Shown here piece by piece: positions 14,925 to 32,857 of a stretch of 43,086 nucleotides of DNA (position 1 is the first letter of the stretch; the number at the start of each line of letters is the position of its first letter). The DNA comes from an uncultured Chthoniobacter sp. (GTDB lineage: Bacteria > Verrucomicrobiota > Verrucomicrobiia > Chthoniobacterales > Terrimicrobiaceae): positions 1 to 43,086 of the forward strand of contig CAYRTN010000001.1 in NCBI GenBank assembly GCA_964427235.1. Reading direction: 5' to 3'. The notes under the pieces were generated by a model that saw nothing but the letters and a program-made list of their open reading frames with translations, made no database searches and was not told where the DNA came from. The translations under genes were made by a program, and so were the position numbers.

Positions 14925-16354
14925 TTATTTCCTCGTGATTTTTGTTTTTCTTGTCTTGCTCTCATTGTGCCGACTGCCCAGCCGTGCGGATTAGAATAGC
15001 CACGAGATACACCCAAAGCAATTAATTCTTGCAATGATTGTGCTTGTGCTTGTTCTTTCTTTTTTTGAAATTTTATCTGCGTCTGTATGTGTTCATAATG
15101 CTCAATGGATACTGATACAAGCTCCCCTGCAATAACAACTTGTTTGCGTTTTTCTGTAAATTCTATATCCCAGCCACAACGCTCACAAATACGTTCTTTG
15201 GTTAAAAAATGATGTTTACAATTATCGCACTGGGTGATTCGTTCGGTAATTTCTACTTCACGCTTGCGTTTTTTAACTCCATCAAGAGACCACTCACGGT
15301 CTTCACAAGGCAAGCCGTGAATTGCCACGTTACCCACAAAATCAAGAATAGTGCAATGTGTTTTACCCTCGCACGCACGCAAGCCACGCCCCATTTTTTG
15401 TAGATAACTAACGATTGATTTTGTTTTTGTCATGTCGATAATTCCATTTACAACTGGTATATCTGTACCTTCTGAAATAACACTACATGATGTTAAGCCG
15501 TGTATTTCGCCACTGCCTAGGCTATCTATTGCTTTTTTGCGTGCGGCAGGAGTCATTTTACCGTCAATAGACATAAAATTATAACCTGCTTCACGGAATT
15601 TTTGTGCTGCAATCTCTGCCATTTCAACTGTTGGATAAAATCCTATTGTAGGCTGATTGTGTAAATATTTACGATATTCTGCGACTTCGCACCCTACAAC
15701 CGATTTAAGACGTTCTGCCATTTCTTTGGGGTCATAATCACCATTATTAGCAACCCTAACATCTAATAAATCCACTGCAAGAGGTTGAGAAAATATCTGA
15801 TACGGCGATAAATAACCTTTCTTAATGAGTTCTTTCATTGATGCACCGTGCTTATCGCCACAAACCATATGAGAGAATATTTTATCCAATCCTGTACCGT
15901 CTGTACGTGTTGGGGTTGCTGACATACCTAAGATGCGAGCGTTAGGGAATCTTGAAAAAATATATTGCCACTGCGACGCAATAGAGTGATGCCCCTCGTC
16001 TGCTATAATTAAATCAAATGTTGGCAGGGGGGCATTGTTTTTAATCCGTGATACGAGTGTTTGCACTGATGCCACCATAGCAAGTTCATTACCCATTTTG
16101 ACATTAGGAATAATTAATGAATGTTTAACGCCCATTGATAAATATGCCCGAGAAAACTGGTCAAATATTTCTCTTCGATGCACTAAAGCAAGGACACGGC
16201 GGTTATTTTGTGTCATTTTATGCGTGATGTATGATGCGATTGCTGTTTTGCCACCGCCAGTGCATAGCTGAGCCATTACTGATTTGTGTTTTTGCTCGAA
16301 GGCTTCACGAATACCACCAACTAAAGACTCTTGATGTTCACGTAATATTATCAT
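14918..16354 (-). CDS. SF2 (DEAH / ResIII-type) DNA helicase with C-terminal zinc ribbon (478 aa)
   Basis: Motif I CTGGGKT, motif II IADEGHH, motif III MSATPTR. CDNCKHH...CERCGW Zn ribbon. Confidence 0.85.
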   Translation of the reverse strand: MIILREHQESLVGGIREAFEQKHKSVMAQLCTGGGKTAIASYITHKMTQNNRRVLALVHRREIFDQFSRAYLSMGVKHSLIIPNVKMGNELAMVASVQTLVSRIKNNAPLPTFDLIIADEGHHSIASQWQYIFSRFPNARILGMSATPTRTDGTGLDKIFSHMVCGDKHGASMKELIKKGYLSPYQIFSQPLAVDLLDVRVANNGDYDPKEMAERLKSVVGCEVAEYRKYLHNQPTIGFYPTVEMAEIAAQKFREAGYNFMSIDGKMTPAARKKAIDSLGSGEIHGLTSCSVISEGTDIPVVNGIIDMTKTKSIVSYLQKMGRGLRACEGKTHCTILDFVGNVAIHGLPCEDREWSLDGVKKRKREVEITERITQCDNCKHHFLTKERICERCGWDIEFTEKRKQVVIAGELVSVSIEHYEHIQTQIKFQKKKEQAQAQSLQELIALGVSRGYSNPHGWAVGTMRARQEKQKSRGNKW

Positions 16355-16539
16355 ACTTCCCCCTTATTTTTGTTAATAAAATCAATCATTGCGTTAAGTG
16401 TTTTTAAAGTTGGATTATCGCTCTTTTGTCTTAAAAAATCGTAAACTTGACGGTATGTAATGCCAACTTCTTTCGCCACAAGGCAGGGCGGGTATCTTTT
16501 TAATTTTTTTCTGATTAAATCTATATCTATTTTTTCCAT
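16351..16539 (-). CDS. small HTH regulator (62 aa), first gene of the replication operon
   Basis: LVAKEVGITYRQVYDFLRQ helix-turn-helix. ATGA-coupled to the helicase gene. Confidence 0.7.
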   Translation of the reverse strand: MEKIDIDLIRKKLKRYPPCLVAKEVGITYRQVYDFLRQKSDNPTLKTLNAMIDFINKNKGEV

Positions 16540-16573
16540 ATTAACCTTTTATAAATAATTTTAAATTATGGTG

Positions 16574-16602
16574 TTGACATTATGAGATAAATCTCATATA
16601 TT
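16574..16602 (+). promoter_or_regulatory. consensus sigma70 promoter (recombination operon) with shared operator
   Basis: TTGACA (16574..16579), a 17-nt spacer, then TATATT (16597..16602). The spacer holds the inverted repeat TGAGAT-AA-ATCTCA (16583..16596). Confidence 0.8.
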
Positions 16603-16607
16603 GTCAA
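16579..16607 (-). promoter_or_regulatory. face-to-face sigma70 promoter (replication operon) sharing the same operator
   Basis: On the minus strand, TTGACA (16607..16602), a 17-nt spacer, then CATAAT (16584..16579). The same inverted repeat lies in this spacer. Confidence 0.7.
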
Positions 16608-16629
16608 TACTAAAATACAAGGGGAATAA

Positions 16630-17466
16630 ATGAGACCGAAAGATTATGCACTTAATGATTCGCTGTCACCAAGCGAAATTAAATACCTGATAACTGGAAC
16701 GCCTTATGCGTTTCATTATCATAAATACGAAAATAAAGACGATACCGTGCGTTCTGATGCGTTGGTTGTTGGTTCATATTTGCATTGTAAATGGTTAGAG
16801 CCTGAAAAGCTTACAAGCCGTTATTATGTTGCTGAATATAAATCTAAGGCAACCAAGGAAGGCAAAATCCTTACTGAATATCACCAGTCAGAATATGAAC
16901 GCCTTGCGATTAATAACCCTGATTTAATTTATATTGAAGACAGATTAACAATTCCAAGCGATGATATTTACGAATCATTAAAAAATCACGATGTTATAAA
17001 AACAATTCTATCACAAAATAAAATTGTTGAAACACCGATACAAGATATTTTATCGCCTGTGGATAATGCAAAATTAAAGTGTATTCCTGATGTGGTGTTG
17101 CCTGATAACGGCATTGTGATTGATTTTAAACACATAATAGATATATCTCCTGATAAATTTAGCCGTGATGTTTTAAATTATAATTACCACGTCCAAGCAT
17201 GGATTAATCTGTATTGCGTCGCACATACACTTGATTGTGATATGTCTGATTTACGTTTTGAATTTTTGTGTATATCAAAAGACGCACCTTACGAGGTTGC
17301 ACGCTATGAATTAGCAAAAGAATTTATGATTGATGCTGAAAGTAAAATACTTAAAGCATTGAATAAATATGTTGAAGCCAAGGAGATAGGCTTTAATTCC
17401 TACCCACACACTGTGCAATTATTGCACGCACCAGCATGGATAGCAAAAGGAGATAACAATGAGTAA
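16630..17466 (+). CDS. PD-(D/E)XK recombination exonuclease (RecE/exo VIII-like role, 278 aa)
   Basis: IPDVVLPDNGIVIDFKH gives a D...DxK catalytic pattern. Located directly upstream of recT. Confidence 0.7.
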   Translation: MRPKDYALNDSLSPSEIKYLITGTPYAFHYHKYENKDDTVRSDALVVGSYLHCKWLEPEKLTSRYYVAEYKSKATKEGKILTEYHQSEYERLAINNPDLIYIEDRLTIPSDDIYESLKNHDVIKTILSQNKIVETPIQDILSPVDNAKLKCIPDVVLPDNGIVIDFKHIIDISPDKFSRDVLNYNYHVQAWINLYCVAHTLDCDMSDLRFEFLCISKDAPYEVARYELAKEFMIDAESKILKALNKYVEAKEIGFNSYPHTVQLLHAPAWIAKGDNNE

Positions 17467-30542: not shown

Positions 30543-30724
30543 TTATAATCTCCATTTAATAAATTTAAAGCAACATCACGGTCAACGATTGTGACTGTGG
30601 TTTGCTGTGAGTCATATTCTGCACGTGCGATAATGTCAGCAACGACATCACGCTGTGGTGTCCGTAACCCTTGTGGATCTTTGGCACAGGCGGTTAGCAT
30701 GAATAATAATGTTAAGTATTTCAT
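30539..30724 (-). CDS. small lipoprotein (61 aa)
   Basis: MKYLTLLFMLTAC lipobox L-T-A-C. Confidence 0.65.
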   Translation of the reverse strand: MKYLTLLFMLTACAKDPQGLRTPQRDVVADIIARAEYDSQQTTVTIVDRDVALNLLNGDYK

Positions 30725-30780
30725 ATTATCTCCAATTTGTTAATGTTTGAAAGGGTGGGGACAATTTGTCCCCTGCCTAG

Positions 30781-31044
30781 TTAAAGTTTACCAATAGTTT
30801 TAAGGATTGAGTAAAGTTCGTGTGCTAATGCAAAGTCATAATCAGTCAGCGCATCTTTAATCATAGAAATTAATAATCCACGATTATTTGTCATAACAAT
30901 CTTTGTTTTTTCATTGATTTCTTGACCAGATAAAAGAACTAAATTGTTTTTTAGTCCAGTTAATTTAACCGTTTCAATGTGTGTTAGATTGTAAGTATTA
31001 AGTGTTCTTTGGATTTTATCCGTTGTTAATATTGTCTTAATCAT
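30781..31044 (-). CDS. hypothetical protein (87 aa)
   Basis: First gene of the minus unit, divergent from the 31143 promoter. A hairpin GGGGACA-att-TGTCCCC (30757..30773) follows it. Confidence 0.6.
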   Translation of the reverse strand: MIKTILTTDKIQRTLNTYNLTHIETVKLTGLKNNLVLLSGQEINEKTKIVMTNNRGLLISMIKDALTDYDFALAHELYSILKTIGKL

Positions 31045-31142
31045 TTTATTCTCTCCAATTTTACCTTGGCATCATTGCCTCGATAAAATAAGAATACCAA
31101 AAAGAAGTTAAGGAATAGTTAATATTATTTTTATTATTTTTA

Positions 31143-31171
31143 TTGACAATATTATTTTTATGTTTTATATT
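31143..31171 (+). promoter_or_regulatory. consensus sigma70 promoter
   Basis: TTGACA (31143..31148), a 17-nt spacer, then TATATT (31166..31171). It lies inside the 5' end of the track ORF 31160..31420, which argues for the later ATG at 31211. Confidence 0.8.
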
Positions 31172-31176
31172 CCTGT

Positions 31177-31194
31177 TATCGCAATTAAGCGATA
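31177..31194. promoter_or_regulatory. inverted repeat operator candidate just downstream of the -10
   Basis: TATCGC-aattaa-GCGATA, starting 6 nt after the -10 hexamer. Confidence 0.55.
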
Positions 31195-31210
31195 TATAAG
31201 GGTAACAAAA

Positions 31211-31420
31211 ATGGAATCACCGCTATTACAACAATTTCTAAATATCATTTCTAGTTTTTCACAATCAGAAACTAAAAAAGAAAACAAGGTATTCGATGCT
31301 TTGATAGGTAAGCCAGTCTTAACAAGACACAACCTTGAGGGGGTGGATTTTGGATATTTTGACTCATACAATGATGTTGGATTTGTTTTAAAAGATAACG
31401 GCGACGGTAACAGCAAATGA
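31211..31420 (+). CDS. hypothetical small protein (69 aa)
   Basis: ATG 31211 downstream of the promoter and operator. MESPLLQQFLNIISSFSQSETKKENKVFDALIGKPVLTRHNLEGVDFGYFDSYNDVGFVLKDNGDGNSK. No motif recognised. Confidence 0.6.
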   Translation: MESPLLQQFLNIISSFSQSETKKENKVFDALIGKPVLTRHNLEGVDFGYFDSYNDVGFVLKDNGDGNSK

Positions 31421-31560
31421 AAAAAATATCGCTTGATATACCTGATGATGATTATAATAAATTGAAAGATTTAAAGAAAAATCATCATATTAACATATCG
31501 TCTTTTGTATCTGAGGCTATAAAAGAAAAGCTAGGCAGAGAAAAACCACTTGCAAAATAA
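31417..31560 (+). CDS. ribbon-helix-helix (CopG/Arc/ParD-like) DNA-binding protein (47 aa, below track threshold)
   Basis: ATGA coupling. MKKISLDIPDDDYNKLKDLKKNHHINISSFVSEAIKEKLGREKPLAK shows a beta-strand / helix / helix pattern. Confidence 0.65.
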   Translation: MKKISLDIPDDDYNKLKDLKKNHHINISSFVSEAIKEKLGREKPLAK

Positions 31561-31604
31561 ATTACAAGTGGCATAATTAATCTGTAGGCGTTATACGATT
31601 TAAT

Positions 31605-31640
31605 CCCCCTATGCAGTACAACTCTTAGGGGGTTATTTAT
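31605..31640 (+). terminator. rho-independent terminator
   Basis: CCCCCTA-14 nt-TAGGGGG followed by TTATTTAT. Confidence 0.6.
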
Positions 31641-31674
31641 AACGCATTAATCGAAGTGTATTTTCTTTCAAAAC

Positions 31675-31710
31675 AAAACCCCTTACATGGTTGTGCCATT
31701 GAGGGGTTTT
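31675..31710. terminator. bidirectional terminator
   Basis: AAAACCCCT-18 nt loop-AGGGGTTTT, with T/A runs on both sides. Lies 8 nt after the DUF2829 gene stop. Confidence 0.7.
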
Positions 31711-31717
31711 ATCTTAT

Positions 31718-32011
31718 TTAAGCAATAACCCAATCATCAGCTAAAACATCGGTTTGTGATGCAAGCCAAGGCTCAACGGTATCTTGTGCGGTTTTCATAG
31801 CAATATATGCTTGATACGGCACTAAATCATTGGGGAATACCCCTGCCATTGTATTGAGCGTATTGTTTGAAGCTGGATATTTGTTTTCAGGAACATAATA
31901 TAGAAACATTCCTTTGCCATTCCAGCCAGAACGAGCAACCTTATGTCCTGCTTTTAAATGGCGTATAGCAAAACCAAAATCAAATTGCCTTACCTGTATT
32001 CCGTCAGTCAT
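31718..32011 (-). CDS. DUF2829 family protein (Thoeris anti-defence Tad2-like, 97 aa)
   Basis: FGFAIRHLKAGHKVARSGWNGKGMFLYYV...YIAMKTAQDTVEPWLASQTDVLADDWVIA matches the DUF2829 hallmark (KVAR.GWNGKGM...MKTADG...PW.ASQTD.LAEDW). RBS AAGGAGAGG. Confidence 0.8.
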   Translation of the reverse strand: MTDGIQVRQFDFGFAIRHLKAGHKVARSGWNGKGMFLYYVPENKYPASNNTLNTMAGVFPNDLVPYQAYIAMKTAQDTVEPWLASQTDVLADDWVIA

Positions 32012-32026
32012 AACCTCTCCTTAAAT

Positions 32027-32071
32027 TAAAAAAGACCCCTCGATTTGAGCATATTCAGAGGCTTGAGGGGT
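32027..32071 (-). terminator. rho-independent terminator separating the late operon from the DUF2829 gene
   Basis: On the minus strand, ACCCCTC...GAGGGGT stem followed by C and a T6 run (plus-strand A-run at 32028..32033). Confidence 0.7.
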
Positions 32072-32086
32072 TCTTAATTTATTCTA

Positions 32087-32824
32087 TCATGCTTTATTGA
32101 GGTTACGCAATACATTTGTTATTGCGATTTCAATATCACCATTACGAGAATGACGTTCATTGTTATCACATTTATCACGCAAGCGGTTATTCTCAATGGT
32201 TAAAGCAAGTTCGCGAGTCTGCGCTGATTGCTTTAAATCCAATTCACGAATACTAGCAGATTGTGTCAATAGCGATTTTTGAGTTTCACAACAACATTCT
32301 GCTATTTGACGTGCTAACTCACTGGTATTTTTACAAGCGTCAAGTTTTACATCACCAAAGCCACGGATTAATTCCTCGCGTGTTTTTGCTTCTGATTTTT
32401 CATTCTCTAAAGATAAATGAGCAATTTGTTTGCTTAAATCATTATTCACTTGCAATAACTGATAACGATTTTGTGCAACTTCTTGACGTACATCACTAAA
32501 CCCAGTTGACGTAAAGAATTTATTGTCACCAATTTCTTTAGATAAATCATGCTGTGTATTTAACACGTCACGAGATACATTGGTAACGTCGTGTGCAAGT
32601 CTTGATTGTCCATCGGTAATTAATGCCCCAATAGAATCAAGATTTGTGCGGACATCGTTTTCACTATCATAGATAGATTTTACGATTTCACGTTGTCCAG
32701 CGAGTAAGTCATTATTATTATCTTGATTATTATATCCATGTCCATTGTTTAAATGGCACGGTGCGTCCGATTGTATCGTTAGCATGATTTTTATGTCCAA
32801 GCCTCGTGATTGAGGCATTACCAT
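32087..32824 (-). CDS. coiled-coil protein with Cys cluster (245 aa), unknown function
   Basis: Long heptad-like Gln/Asn/Asp/Leu-rich region. Unusual IAECCCETQKS cluster plus two further Cys residues (DACKN, DKCDN). Confidence 0.65.
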   Translation of the reverse strand: MVMPQSRGLDIKIMLTIQSDAPCHLNNGHGYNNQDNNNDLLAGQREIVKSIYDSENDVRTNLDSIGALITDGQSRLAHDVTNVSRDVLNTQHDLSKEIGDNKFFTSTGFSDVRQEVAQNRYQLLQVNNDLSKQIAHLSLENEKSEAKTREELIRGFGDVKLDACKNTSELARQIAECCCETQKSLLTQSASIRELDLKQSAQTRELALTIENNRLRDKCDNNERHSRNGDIEIAITNVLRNLNKA

Positions 32825-32857
32825 TGTACTCTCATTTTAGGTATTTAGATATGTTAT

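What the first reader, a model, noticed from the sequence alone, without database searches (positions are those of the whole stretch)
31143..31560. Insulated promoter-operator-69aa-RHH mini-operon next to the Tad2-like gene
A perfect TTGACA-17-TATATT promoter is followed 6 nt later by the inverted repeat TATCGC-aattaa-GCGATA. Next come a 69-aa protein with no recognisable family and an ATGA-coupled 47-aa ribbon-helix-helix protein that the ORF track misses. Hairpins and a terminator close the unit. A small effector followed by a small autorepressor under a very strong promoter fits anti-defence (acr-aca-like, with an RHH in place of the HTH). It also fits a reversed-order toxin-antitoxin module. 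Its position directly beside a DUF2829 gene makes 31143..32071 look like a small counter-defence islet.
Basis: partly seen in the sequence, partly recalled or inferred. Interest (0 to 1): 0.65.

Follow-up and report, generated by a model that had tools for sequence, protein, structure and literature searches.

The report
Self-repressed phage operon with truncated cargo
This is a real, self-contained early phage mini-operon with a small DNA-binding repressor, but its "69-aa effector" is the leftover of a deletion that destroyed two genes which related phages still carry: a DUF6948 protein and a glycine-X repeat protein, a widespread pair of unknown function.

Summary
The promoter, the inverted repeat, the 69-aa ORF, the ATGA-coupled 47-aa ORF and the hairpins all lie where stated.

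The interpretation needs revision. The 69-aa ORF does have a family. It consists of codons 1-~61 of a 125-133-aa DUF6948 (PF22253) protein, fused in frame to the last few codons of a (Gly-X)n repeat gene.

The closest relatives carry the intact operon: promoter, operator, DUF6948 gene, (Gly-Asn/Asp/Tyr)n gene, RHH gene. The -35 box, the 17-bp spacing and the core ATCGC-N6-GCGAT are invariant across five diverged lineages. The RHH strand MKKIS is invariant too. This supports RHH autorepression at about +1.

The RHH call rests on sub-threshold HMM hits plus a strand-helix-helix model.

The DUF6948/(Gly-X)n pair occurs without any RHH in Pectobacterium, Vibrio and Ralstonia phages and in 30 of 33 genomic loci. 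The RHH has only six residues after helix 2. A toxin-antitoxin reading is therefore unlikely.

The Tad2-like gene is an independent cassette, absent from the closest relative. "Aca-like regulation" is plausible and has a precedent in Aca14, but there is no sequence homology to it. An active 69-aa effector is unlikely. Interest is moderate and lies mainly in the uncharacterised module.

The parts
31143..31171 (+). Sigma-70-type promoter: TTGACA (31143-31148), 17-nt spacer, TATATT (31166-31171)
   Evidence: 11/12, best in 29-34 kb. The -35 box and the 17-bp spacing are invariant in 6 aligned lineages. The hexamers and spacing are the same as at the early-operon promoter at 16574.
31177..31194 (.). 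Operator candidate: inverted repeat TATCGC-aattaa-GCGATA. The core ATCGC (31178-31182) and GCGAT (31189-31193) are 11 bp apart centre to centre and cover the predicted +1 to +16.
   Evidence: It is the only site in the window. It occurs exactly once per locus, always just upstream of the DUF6948 gene, in 14 loci. The core is invariant while the flanks diverge.
31198..31202 (+). Ribosome-binding site AAGGG, 8 nt before the ATG at 31211 (AAGGAG in relatives)
31211..31420 (+). 69-aa chimeric ORF. Codons 1-~61 are the N-terminal half of a DUF6948 protein. The tail KDNGDGNSK is a remnant of the leader and repeat of the (Gly-X)n gene.
   Evidence: Exhaustive HMMER finds P0005 (132 aa, 75% identity over residues 5-63, E 2e-19). 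There are 7 full-length homologues of 125-133 aa, all matching PF22253. tblastn finds only residues 1-63 anywhere in the window. The 69-aa ORF itself has no Pfam or PHROG hit.
31391..31398 (+). Deletion junction
   Evidence: blastn: window 31059-31391 matches L028 2073-2404 (86%), and window 31398-31713 matches L010 27-325 (90%). L028 and L010 are the two halves of an intact operon from one sample, broken in the repeat.
31417..31560 (+). 47-aa ribbon-helix-helix-like regulator, translationally coupled (ATGA); proposed autorepressor
   Evidence: Sub-threshold hits go only to RHH-type families: DUF6290 (5e-4), CcdA, RHH_3 and CopG_antitoxin. Hits recur in 3-5 of 6 family members. NCBIfam gives ORF56, CcdA and RelB. 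The AF2 model has pLDDT 70.5 with an extended 1-9, helix 10-22 and helix 27-41. Compared with L010 there are 7 synonymous and 1 non-synonymous codon changes. MKKIS is invariant.
31545..31572 (-). Hairpin overlapping the RHH stop codon. On the - strand it is followed by TTTTTCT, which makes it a terminator against antisense read-in.
   Evidence: The stem keeps pairing through a double change: CCACTTG/CAAGTGG in the window and L010, CCGCTTG/CAAGCGG in L009, L011 and L013.
31588..31645 (+). Hairpin 2. The G+C core CCCCCTA...TAGGGGG (31605-31632) is followed by TTATTTAT, a + strand terminator-like element.
   Evidence: conserved in L010
31675..31713 (.). Hairpin 3: bidirectional terminator (AAAACCCCT...AGGGGTTTT) between the convergent RHH operon and the Tad2-like gene
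   Evidence: present in L010, L011 and L009
31718..32011 (-). Neighbouring Tad2-like (PF11195/DUF2829) gene. It is not part of the operon. It lies on a separate cassette (31714-32062) that is absent from L010.
   Evidence: Pfam E 6.5e-26, 91.1 bits against a cut-off of 25; indel relative to L010

Best explanation
The unit is an early, host-RNAP-transcribed accessory operon that represses itself.

Shown:
- In related phages the operon is promoter, operator, DUF6948 gene (125-133 aa), hypervariable (Gly-Asn/Asp/Tyr/Ser)n repeat gene (34-87 aa), then a 47-aa RHH gene, followed by terminators.
- In this phage an in-frame deletion removed DUF6948 codons ~62-130 and nearly the whole repeat gene.
- What remains is a 69-aa chimera that still ends in the ATGA overlap with the RHH start.

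Inferred:
- Two RHH dimers bind the half-sites ATCGC and GCGAT, 11 bp apart, on one face of the DNA.
- The site covers about +1 to +16, so binding blocks initiation or promoter escape.
- The result is a short early pulse followed by shut-off, as with Aca proteins or P22 Arc.
- In this phage the pulse now delivers only the RHH and a probably non-functional fragment, so the window carries a natural cargo knockout.

The function of the intact cargo pair is unknown. It is a widespread, self-contained phage module. My best guess is a host-interaction or counter-defence accessory function.
For: Deletion:
- The only homologues of the 69-aa ORF are full-length DUF6948 proteins.
- Intact three-gene operons exist in L013, L014 and L017, and in L028+L010.
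- The junction maps to 31391-31398.
- No C-terminal half and no repeat ORF exist elsewhere in the window.
- The 69-aa ORF gives no DUF6948 hit even at E<=1.
- Six of the 13 invariant family columns are missing.
- The same arrangement appears in at least 23 independent contigs, so it is not an assembly artefact.

Regulation:
- The -35 box, the 17-bp spacing and the operator core are invariant across lineages whose coding DNA has dS of 0.4 to above 2.
- There is one operator per locus, always at the same place.
- The RHH N-terminal strand MKKIS is invariant.
- The RHH is under purifying selection, with 7 synonymous to 1 non-synonymous changes.
- The fold is RHH-like.
- The promoter is identical in hexamers and spacing to the early-operon promoter at 16574.

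Insulation: the hairpins fold with z about -5 on both strands, and one stem shows a compensatory change.

Relic status: the window branch carries excess non-synonymous changes. I derived a rough branch dN/dS of ~0.5 against ~0.2-0.3 for intact relatives from the pairwise counts. The counts are small.
Against: - No experiment shows binding or repression.
- RHH membership is sub-threshold in every HMM library, and Foldseek found nothing.
- The deletion is in frame and keeps the RBS, the start codon and the coupling. The promoter, operator and RHH are intact. The chimera might therefore be expressed and might have kept or gained a function.
- Retention of the RHH after cargo loss hints that the RHH has a role beyond regulating the cargo.
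- The excess of non-synonymous change rests on about 5 substitutions clustered in residues 2-8.
- The function of the intact cargo is wholly inferred.
Confidence: 0.6

Rival explanations
1. An active acr-aca-like anti-defence operon. The 69-aa protein is a working small inhibitor of a host defence system, and the RHH is its Aca-type repressor.
For: - The architecture fits: strong early promoter, operator, small ORF, small regulator as last gene.
- An RHH-type Aca (Aca14) is now documented.
- The same RHH (83% identity) follows a different small cargo in L008/L009, a 61-aa protein in phrog_27197. This resembles the cargo swapping seen with aca genes.
- The locus lies in a variable accessory region next to a Tad2-like gene.
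- The deletion is in frame.
Against: - The 69-aa ORF is a truncated domain fragment lacking half the invariant residues.
- It matches no known family in Pfam, PHROGs, PADLOC or NCBIfam.
- The RHH has no detectable similarity to Aca14 (hhalign probability 2%).
- The intact cargo pair usually travels without any regulator.
Confidence: 0.12
2. The RHH is mainly a switch for neighbouring phage genes, as in P22 immI Arc/Mnt. One target could be a divergent - strand promoter for genes 31044->29339. The upstream ORF then matters mostly as a translational leader.
For: - The RHH, promoter and operator are kept intact although the cargo is destroyed, and coupling is preserved.
- A - strand TTGTCA-16-TAATAT (31149-31122) shares the -35 region.
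- The - strand genes downstream of two terminators need their own promoter.
- Aca proteins often regulate adjacent operons.
Against: - There is only one operator-like site in the genome. It lies upstream of the candidate - strand -35 box, not over it.
- The - strand promoter candidate is not conserved in L028, L021 or L017.
- AT-rich DNA gives many promoter-like hits: 38 found against 24.8 expected.
Confidence: 0.15
3. A reversed-order type II toxin-antitoxin module, with the toxin upstream and the RHH as antitoxin. It is now decayed by toxin deletion.
For: - The best sub-threshold HMM hits include CcdA, RelB, CopG antitoxin and HicB-like families.
- Autoregulated two- or three-gene operons and loss of the toxin with retention of the antitoxin are common in TA decay (established knowledge).
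Against: - The RHH is 47 aa with only 6 residues after helix 2. There is no room for the C-terminal toxin-binding segment that RHH antitoxins such as CcdA, RelB and ParD carry (established knowledge).
- DUF6948 and the (Gly-X)n gene occur without this RHH in all 38 distant loci examined (L022-L027 and L029-L061).
- No toxin family is recognised.
Confidence: 0.04

Closest known systems
acr-aca operons, in particular the RHH-type regulator Aca14 (bioRxiv 10.64898/2026.07.27.740549)
   Same: Strong early promoter. Inverted-repeat operator at the promoter. Small cargo gene or genes first and a small dimeric DNA-binding repressor as last gene. The regulator uses an RHH instead of an HTH. The regulator is seen with more than one cargo (L008/L009).
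   Different: No detectable sequence similarity to Aca14. Aca14 is 67 aa with an N-terminal helical extension, and its AT-rich repeat overlaps the -10 box; here the repeat lies at about +1 to +16. The cargo is not a known Acr or anti-defence protein, and in this window it is truncated.
Phage P22 immI region: P_ant, with Arc (RHH autorepressor) and the antirepressor gene
   Same: From established knowledge: a small RHH repressor shuts off its own strong promoter after an early burst. Arc binds as a dimer of dimers to half-sites about one helical turn apart. The cassette is embedded among late genes.
   Different: The gene order is reversed: Arc is the first gene, the RHH here is the last. Only a sub-threshold PHROG hit to Arc-like repressors (E 0.069). 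The cargo is unrelated, and no Mnt-like second repressor was seen.
RHH antitoxins of type II TA systems (CcdA, RelB, ParD, CopG-type)
   Same: The best (sub-threshold) HMM similarities are to these families. All involve autorepression through an RHH at an inverted repeat.
   Different: There is no toxin-binding C-terminal extension. The partner genes are found without the RHH in nearly all other lineages.
DUF6948 (PF22253) proteins with an adjacent (Gly-X)n 'fibroin heavy chain-like' ORF. Examples: Pectobacterium phage Taid CDS0033/0032, Ralstonia phage NK-7, Vibrio phage IKEMa6-1.
   Same: The window's 69-aa ORF derives from exactly this pair. In Taid the pair is likewise a + strand unit with its own promoter and terminator, set among - strand tail genes.
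   Different: Those phages have the full-length pair and no RHH. The window has only a fused remnant plus the RHH. No function is published.

Membership tests
Ribbon-helix-helix (CopG/Arc/MetJ) DNA-binding proteins | About 45-aa strand-helix-helix topology | tested here: met
   AF2 monomer model: extended 1-9, helix 10-22, helix 27-41, mean pLDDT 70.5. The strand forms only in the dimer, which could not be modelled.
Ribbon-helix-helix (CopG/Arc/MetJ) DNA-binding proteins | Profile match above the curated threshold | tested here: inconclusive
   Every RHH-type hit is below the gathering score: DUF6290 20.7 against 27 bits, CcdA 17.3 against 22.4, RHH_3 14.7 against 21.6. Hits recur in 3-5 of 6 members. 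The PDB profile search and Foldseek gave nothing significant.
Ribbon-helix-helix (CopG/Arc/MetJ) DNA-binding proteins | Sequence-specific binding to repeated half-sites | not testable with these tools
   Only indirect evidence: the invariant operator core and the invariant MKKIS strand are conserved together.
acr-aca operon (Aca-type regulation) | Regulator gene at the 3' end of a short operon driven by a strong promoter with a conserved inverted repeat | tested here: met
acr-aca operon (Aca-type regulation) | Regulator homologous to a described Aca family (Aca14 is the only RHH one) | tested here: not met
   hhalign of alignment A2 against Aca14: probability 2%, 16 columns aligned
acr-aca operon (Aca-type regulation) | Upstream gene is a verified or homologous anti-defence protein | tested here: inconclusive
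   The 69-aa ORF and DUF6948 proteins have no annotated family beyond the DUF. No anti-defence HMM library such as dbAPIS or AntiDefenseFinder is available here.
Type II toxin-antitoxin module with RHH antitoxin | Antitoxin carries a toxin-binding segment besides the DNA-binding domain | tested here: not met
   47 aa in total. Helix 2 ends at residue 41, leaving 6 residues.
Type II toxin-antitoxin module with RHH antitoxin | Toxin and antitoxin genes co-occur as a pair | tested here: not met
   An HMM of the RHH finds it only in this phage clade. None is found in the 38 distant loci examined, L022-L027 and L029-L061.
DUF6948 (PF22253) | Full 85-position domain scoring above the gathering threshold | tested here: not met
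   The window's 69-aa ORF gives no hit at E<=1. Its homologue P0005 scores 42.5 bits against a cut-off of 27, and distant phage members score 72-107 bits. The window ORF is therefore a fragment derived from a member, not a member with an intact domain.
DUF6948 (PF22253) | Family-invariant residues (A4 columns: I38 G39 K40 R45 G50 V51 G54 R70 W73 W75 S82 I112 I123) | tested here: not met
   The window keeps the first 7 and lacks R70, W73, W75, S82, I112 and I123.
Tad2-like (PF11195/DUF2829), neighbouring gene | Domain match above threshold | tested here: met
   91.1 bits against a cut-off of 25, E 6.5e-26. Signal-sponge activity was not tested.
Counter-defence islet (operon functionally linked to Tad2-like gene) | Conserved adjacency of the two units | tested here: not met
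   L010 has the operon end and terminators but no Tad2-like gene. Window 31714-32062 is an insertion relative to it. L008, L013 and L017 have unrelated genes there.

The most novel reading that the evidence does not exclude
The intact ancestral cargo is a DUF6948 protein (possibly Sm-like) plus an acidic, length-hypervariable (Gly-Asp/Ser/Tyr/Asn)n 'fibroin-like' peptide. It could be a new, very widespread two-component phage host-takeover or counter-defence module. In this phage clade it would be delivered as an early pulse under an RHH Aca-like repressor. The window would then be a natural knockout of the module, with isogenic-like intact relatives (L028/L010) available for comparison.
Probability: 0.25. 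Interest if true: 0.7.

Novelty: new variant of a known kind. Interest (0 to 1): 0.4.

Why it matters
For this window the practical message is a caution. A textbook-looking 'promoter, operator, small effector, small repressor' unit can be a decayed version of a larger operon, and only comparison with relatives reveals that.

The regulatory part adds a second, sequence-unrelated example of an RHH (not HTH) repressor in the 'aca position' of a phage accessory operon. Its operator is clearly conserved and easy to test.

The more interesting by-product is the cargo. DUF6948 next to a (Gly-X)n dipeptide-repeat ORF is conserved in 30 of 33 loci found in assemblies assigned to Proteobacteria, Bacteroidota, Verrucomicrobiota, Cyanobacteria, Actinobacteria, Clostridia and CPR, and in cultured Pectobacterium, Vibrio and Ralstonia phages. 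I found no literature on it. The repeat length changes between otherwise identical contigs. That defines a concrete, testable unknown in phage biology, with cultured phages and a natural deletion variant at hand.

Tried and rejected
Searches that found nothing:
- megablast of 30700-32100 against GenBank phages, and tblastn of the 69-aa and 47-aa proteins.
- The word-index homologue search for the 69-aa protein found only itself. The exhaustive HMMER search was needed.
- IMG/VR scans with the 69-aa protein, with alignment A1 and with an RHH DNA pattern.
- Both metagenome-contig scans, one with alignment A2 and one with a DNA pattern.
- The genome-contig scan with the narrow alignment A1. The broader alignment A4 worked.

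Structure and fold:
- AF2 of full-length DUF6948 with an 8-sequence alignment failed (pLDDT 39), so no fold search was run on it.
- Foldseek of the RHH model against the PDB gave no hits.
- PDB profile searches gave only E 0.1-0.8 hits: colicin E7 immunity protein, LSm6 and a CopG-family regulator. They were treated as leads at most.
Hfq gave nothing.

Hits judged spurious or uninformative:
- Hits of residues 34-67 to DUF5011-like Ig repeats are probably summed weak repeat matches.
- TrAA12 hits of the repeat ORFs reflect composition.
- A PADLOC Cas6b hit for the 87-aa neighbour and a ZorA hit for the 245-aa neighbour are weak and were not pursued.

Other negative results:
- Clustering ORFs across 44 loci found no further conserved neighbour of DUF6948.
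- Literature searches for DUF6948, for fibroin-like phage proteins and for the repeat strings found nothing relevant.
- An exact microhomology for the deletion could not be established. TTTTAACA occurs at both sides in L028, but recombination there would be out of frame and does not reproduce the window junction.
Full report
**1. The observation**

- TTGACA is at 31143-31148, followed by a 17-nt spacer and TATATT at 31166-31171.
- The inverted repeat TATCGC-aattaa-GCGATA is at 31177-31194.
- AAGGG lies 8 nt before the ATG at 31211.
- The 69-aa ORF runs 31211-31420, and the 47-aa ORF (31417-31560) overlaps it by ATGA.

Gene callers started the first ORF at 31160, giving 86 aa (P0001). That ATG lies inside the promoter. 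Homologues align from M at 31211, so 69 aa is the right length.

The promoter match (11/12) is the best in 29-34 kb. The whole window has five sites of at least 11/12 against 2.9 expected. The inverted repeat alone is not beyond chance either. The case for both rests on comparison with relatives (section 3).

The unit is the only + strand transcription unit inside a - strand block running from 42385 to 29339. The sequence 31535-31725 folds into three hairpins on either strand (z = -5.1 and -5.8).

**2. What the 69-aa ORF is**

It has no hit in Pfam, PHROGs, PADLOC or NCBIfam. tblastn against GenBank phages found nothing, and the word-index search found only itself.

The exhaustive HMMER search found one real relative, P0005. 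It is 132 aa, 75% identical over residues 5-63, with E 2e-19. P0005 is a DUF6948 (PF22253) protein scoring 42.5 bits against a cut-off of 27. A search with P0005 gave six more homologues of 125-133 aa, all carrying PF22253. In the alignment the window protein stops after '...GFVLK', where the others continue '...(N/D)SRKLWRW...' for another ~70 residues.

The contigs of these homologues show a three-gene operon:
- the same promoter and inverted repeat;
- the DUF6948 gene;
- an overlapping ORF with the leader M(S)IL(L/I)EFxGYKMD(K/N)DFN followed by (Gly-Asn/Asp/Tyr/Ser)n;
- the 47-aa RHH gene, overlapping or a few nt downstream.

The repeat ORF is 34 aa in L013, 87 aa in L014 (75 aa from the internal ATG that the gene caller used), 59 aa in L017 and 77 aa in L011.

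The closest relative is split over two contigs from one sample. L028 ends in the repeat and L010 starts in it. Window 31059-31391 matches L028 at 86%, and window 31398-31713 matches L010 at 90%. The window tail KDNGDGNSK corresponds to '...KMDKDFNGDGNG...' of the repeat gene's leader plus its last codons.

tblastn finds only residues 1-63 of the DUF6948 protein anywhere in the window, and the window holds no other Gly-X ORF.

The 69-aa ORF is therefore an in-frame deletion chimera. It keeps about 30 of the 85 domain positions and lacks six of the thirteen family-invariant residues: R70, W73, W75, S82, I112 and I123. The same arrangement appears in at least 23 contigs from independent assemblies, so it is a real lineage and not an assembly collapse.

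A rough three-taxon split of the pairwise counts puts excess non-synonymous change on the window branch. This is my own derivation: about 11 non-synonymous against about 7 synonymous substitutions, a branch dN/dS near 0.5, compared with 0.1-0.3 for intact pairs. The excess is clustered in residues 2-8. It hints at relaxed constraint, but the numbers are small.

**3. The regulatory part**

I aligned the ~110 nt upstream of the start codon from six sequences representing five lineages. Their coding DNA differs by dS of 0.4 to above 2. Three features are invariant:
- ATTGACA (the -35 box with one preceding base);
- most of the spacer, with a TA-rich hexamer exactly 17 bp downstream;
- ATCGCAAT-AAGCGAT.

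The sequences between the -10 box and the repeat, and between the repeat and the RBS, differ. ATCGC-N6-GCGAT occurs exactly once in each of 14 loci, always at this position.

The 47-aa proteins of the same lineages are 57-98% identical, with MKKIS at the N-terminus invariant. In RHH proteins this is the segment that forms the DNA-reading strand (established knowledge).

The evidence for an RHH fold is consistent but sub-threshold:
- The Pfam hits are to RHH-type families (DUF6290, CcdA, RHH_3, CopG_antitoxin), apart from one weak KH-domain hit.
- Hits recur in 3-5 of 6 members, and RHH_1 also appears.
- NCBIfam gives ORF56, CcdA and RelB.
- The AF2 monomer has an extended N-terminus plus two helices, pLDDT 70.5.
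- Foldseek and the PDB profile search were uninformative.

The gene is under purifying selection, with 7 synonymous to 1 non-synonymous codon differences from L010.

Geometry. With the -10 box ending at 31171, the start site should lie near 31178. The half-sites, 11 bp apart centre to centre, then cover about +1 to +16. This fits two dimers on one DNA face, as for Arc (inference from established RHH structures).

The promoter has the same hexamers and spacing as the one heading the early operon at 16574. That points to early transcription by host RNA polymerase.

**4. Insulation**

Hairpin 1 (31545-31572) overlaps the RHH stop codon. On the - strand it is followed by TTTTTCT, and the terminator scan picks it up. 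Its stem stays paired through a double change. CCA->CCG is a synonymous Pro codon change in the coding arm, and it is matched by T->C in the non-coding arm in L009, L011 and L013. The conserved C-terminal 'EKPL' of the RHH is thus partly a DNA/RNA-level constraint.

Hairpin 2 has its core at 31605-31632 and is followed by TTATTTAT. Hairpin 3 (31675-31713) has an A-tract before it and a T-tract after it. Together they close the + strand unit and the convergent Tad2-like gene.

**5. Relation to the Tad2-like gene**

The neighbouring gene is a solid PF11195 match (E 6.5e-26). However, L010 has the RHH at 98% identity and the same terminators, and it lacks this gene. Window 31714-32062 is an insertion relative to L010. 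It is bounded by hairpins that both end in TTGAGGGGTT. Window 32144-32842 is a second insertion. Other relatives carry unrelated small genes at this position.

The region is a hot spot for accessory genes. The adjacency itself is not conserved and does not argue for a shared function.

**6. The cargo pair elsewhere**

tblastn of P0005 found DUF6948 genes at about 30% identity in Pectobacterium phages (Taid, Ymer, Abuela and others), a Dickeya phage, Vibrio phage IKEMa6-1, Ralstonia phage NK-7 and uncultured phages. These score 72-107 bits on PF22253.

In each of the five I inspected, a (Gly-X)n ORF is adjacent on the same strand:
- In Taid it is a 90-aa (G-S/Y/D)n ORF. The pair is again a + strand unit with its own promoter and terminator among - strand tail genes.
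- In NK-7 it is annotated 'fibroin heavy chain-like protein'.
- In ctRVW222 the gene order is reversed.
- In a faecal phage a short GY repeat heads a 177-aa protein.

A scan of one genome per species returned 33 loci in assemblies assigned to very diverse bacterial groups, many on phage-sized contigs. Of these, 30 have the adjacent same-strand Gly-X ORF, with X mostly D, S, Y or N regardless of G+C content. In L017 the Gly codons vary while the G-X pattern persists. This points to selection on the protein.

No other gene family recurs next to DUF6948. The RHH family is confined to the window's clade. The array length differs between otherwise identical contigs L013 and L014.

I found no literature on any of this. 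Three weak, independent pointers suggest an Sm-like fold for DUF6948. This is a lead, not a result.

**7. Mechanism and rivals**

Best explanation (confidence 0.6): a self-repressing early accessory operon whose cargo has been deleted in this phage. The deletion is close to certain. RHH autorepression is likely but inferred. Relic status of the chimera is probable.

Rivals:
- An active acr-aca-like effector (0.12). The architecture and the alternative cargo in L008/L009 favour it. The truncation, and the fact that the cargo pair usually travels without a regulator, count against it.
- The RHH mainly controls neighbouring genes (0.15). The intact RHH, promoter and operator after cargo loss favour it. 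The single operator site and the poorly conserved - strand promoter candidate count against it.
- A reversed toxin-antitoxin module (0.04). The RHH is too short, and the cargo occurs without it almost everywhere.

**8. Comparison with known systems and novelty**

The logic matches Aca-type control. An RHH-type Aca (Aca14) was reported in 2026: a dimer that binds an AT-rich inverted repeat at the -10 box and represses its own and a neighbouring operon. The window's RHH shows no detectable similarity to Aca14. It works like an Aca but is not a member of the Aca14 family. P22 Arc at P_ant is the classical analogue, with the gene order reversed.

The regulatory design is therefore known, while the regulator family and the cargo are new. 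I rate it a new variant of a known kind.

Interest in the window's own unit is moderate to low because the cargo is broken. The uncharacterised, very widespread DUF6948/(Gly-X)n module raises the overall score to about 0.4.

Noticed in passing
window 16351-16640: Early control region. A + strand TTGACA-17-TATATT promoter (16574) overlaps a - strand TTGACA-17-CATAAT promoter (16607). The palindrome ATGAGAT-aa-ATCTCAT lies between the hexamers. A 62-aa - strand ORF (16351-16539) looks like a small HTH regulator.
   Followed up: no
window 31714-32062 and 32144-32842: Relative to the closest relative L010, the Tad2-like gene is a discrete 349-bp insertion bounded by two hairpins that both end in TTGAGGGGTT. 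Most of the 245-aa Cys-rich coiled-coil-like gene (32087-32824) is a second insertion.
   Followed up: partly
L013 5396-5500 vs L014 4564-4826; L012, L015, L021 and L028 end, and L010 starts, inside the array: The (Gly-X)n array changes length (34 against 87 aa) between contigs that are otherwise identical over the operon. It also breaks assemblies, so it is hypervariable. It uses GGC for Gly almost exclusively in a ~35% G+C phage.
   Followed up: partly
L009 1-523 (also L008 31-368): An RHH 83% identical to the window's follows different cargo: a 61-aa ORF (phrog_27197, unknown function). Upstream of that lies an ORF ending in 27-nt tandem repeats encoding (TQAVGTAHE)n. The promoter lies beyond the contig end.
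   Followed up: partly
L023 2930-2975 (Pectobacterium phage Taid): Upstream of Taid's DUF6948 gene, a TTGACG promoter-like site overlaps GCGAT-acttaa-ATCGC. These are the same 5-mers as the window operator with the arms swapped, although Taid has no RHH gene downstream. This may be chance.
   Followed up: no
window 31310-31411 (residues 34-67 of the 69-aa ORF): The exhaustive HMMER search gave E 3.5e-6 to 5e-4 to large proteins made of DUF5011-like Ig repeats ('KPVI...G..Y.D.GA.A.DN.DGN'), summed over 3-7 repeats. This is probably a repeat-summed weak similarity and remains unexplained.
   Followed up: partly
L026 2788-3309 and L047 1171-1866: In Bacteroidales-type phage contigs the Gly-X repeat is short and forms the N-terminus of a 170-230-aa protein. 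That protein has a shared C-terminal globular domain with no Pfam hit.
   Followed up: no
window 31122-31149, - strand: TTGTCA-16-TAATAT on the - strand shares the -35 region of the operon promoter. It could drive the - strand genes 31044->29339, which lie downstream of two terminators. It is not conserved in all relatives.
   Followed up: partly
whole window: The window appears to be a complete ~43-kb genome of a novel phage. Its portal protein is at most 26% identical to any GenBank phage. It encodes an SU10-type portal, RecT with a PDDEXK nuclease, and a Toprim primase. Near-identical genomes occur in many metagenomes. No relative of the operon's DUF6948 protein turned up in the species-representative genomes, and the host is unknown.
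   Followed up: partly
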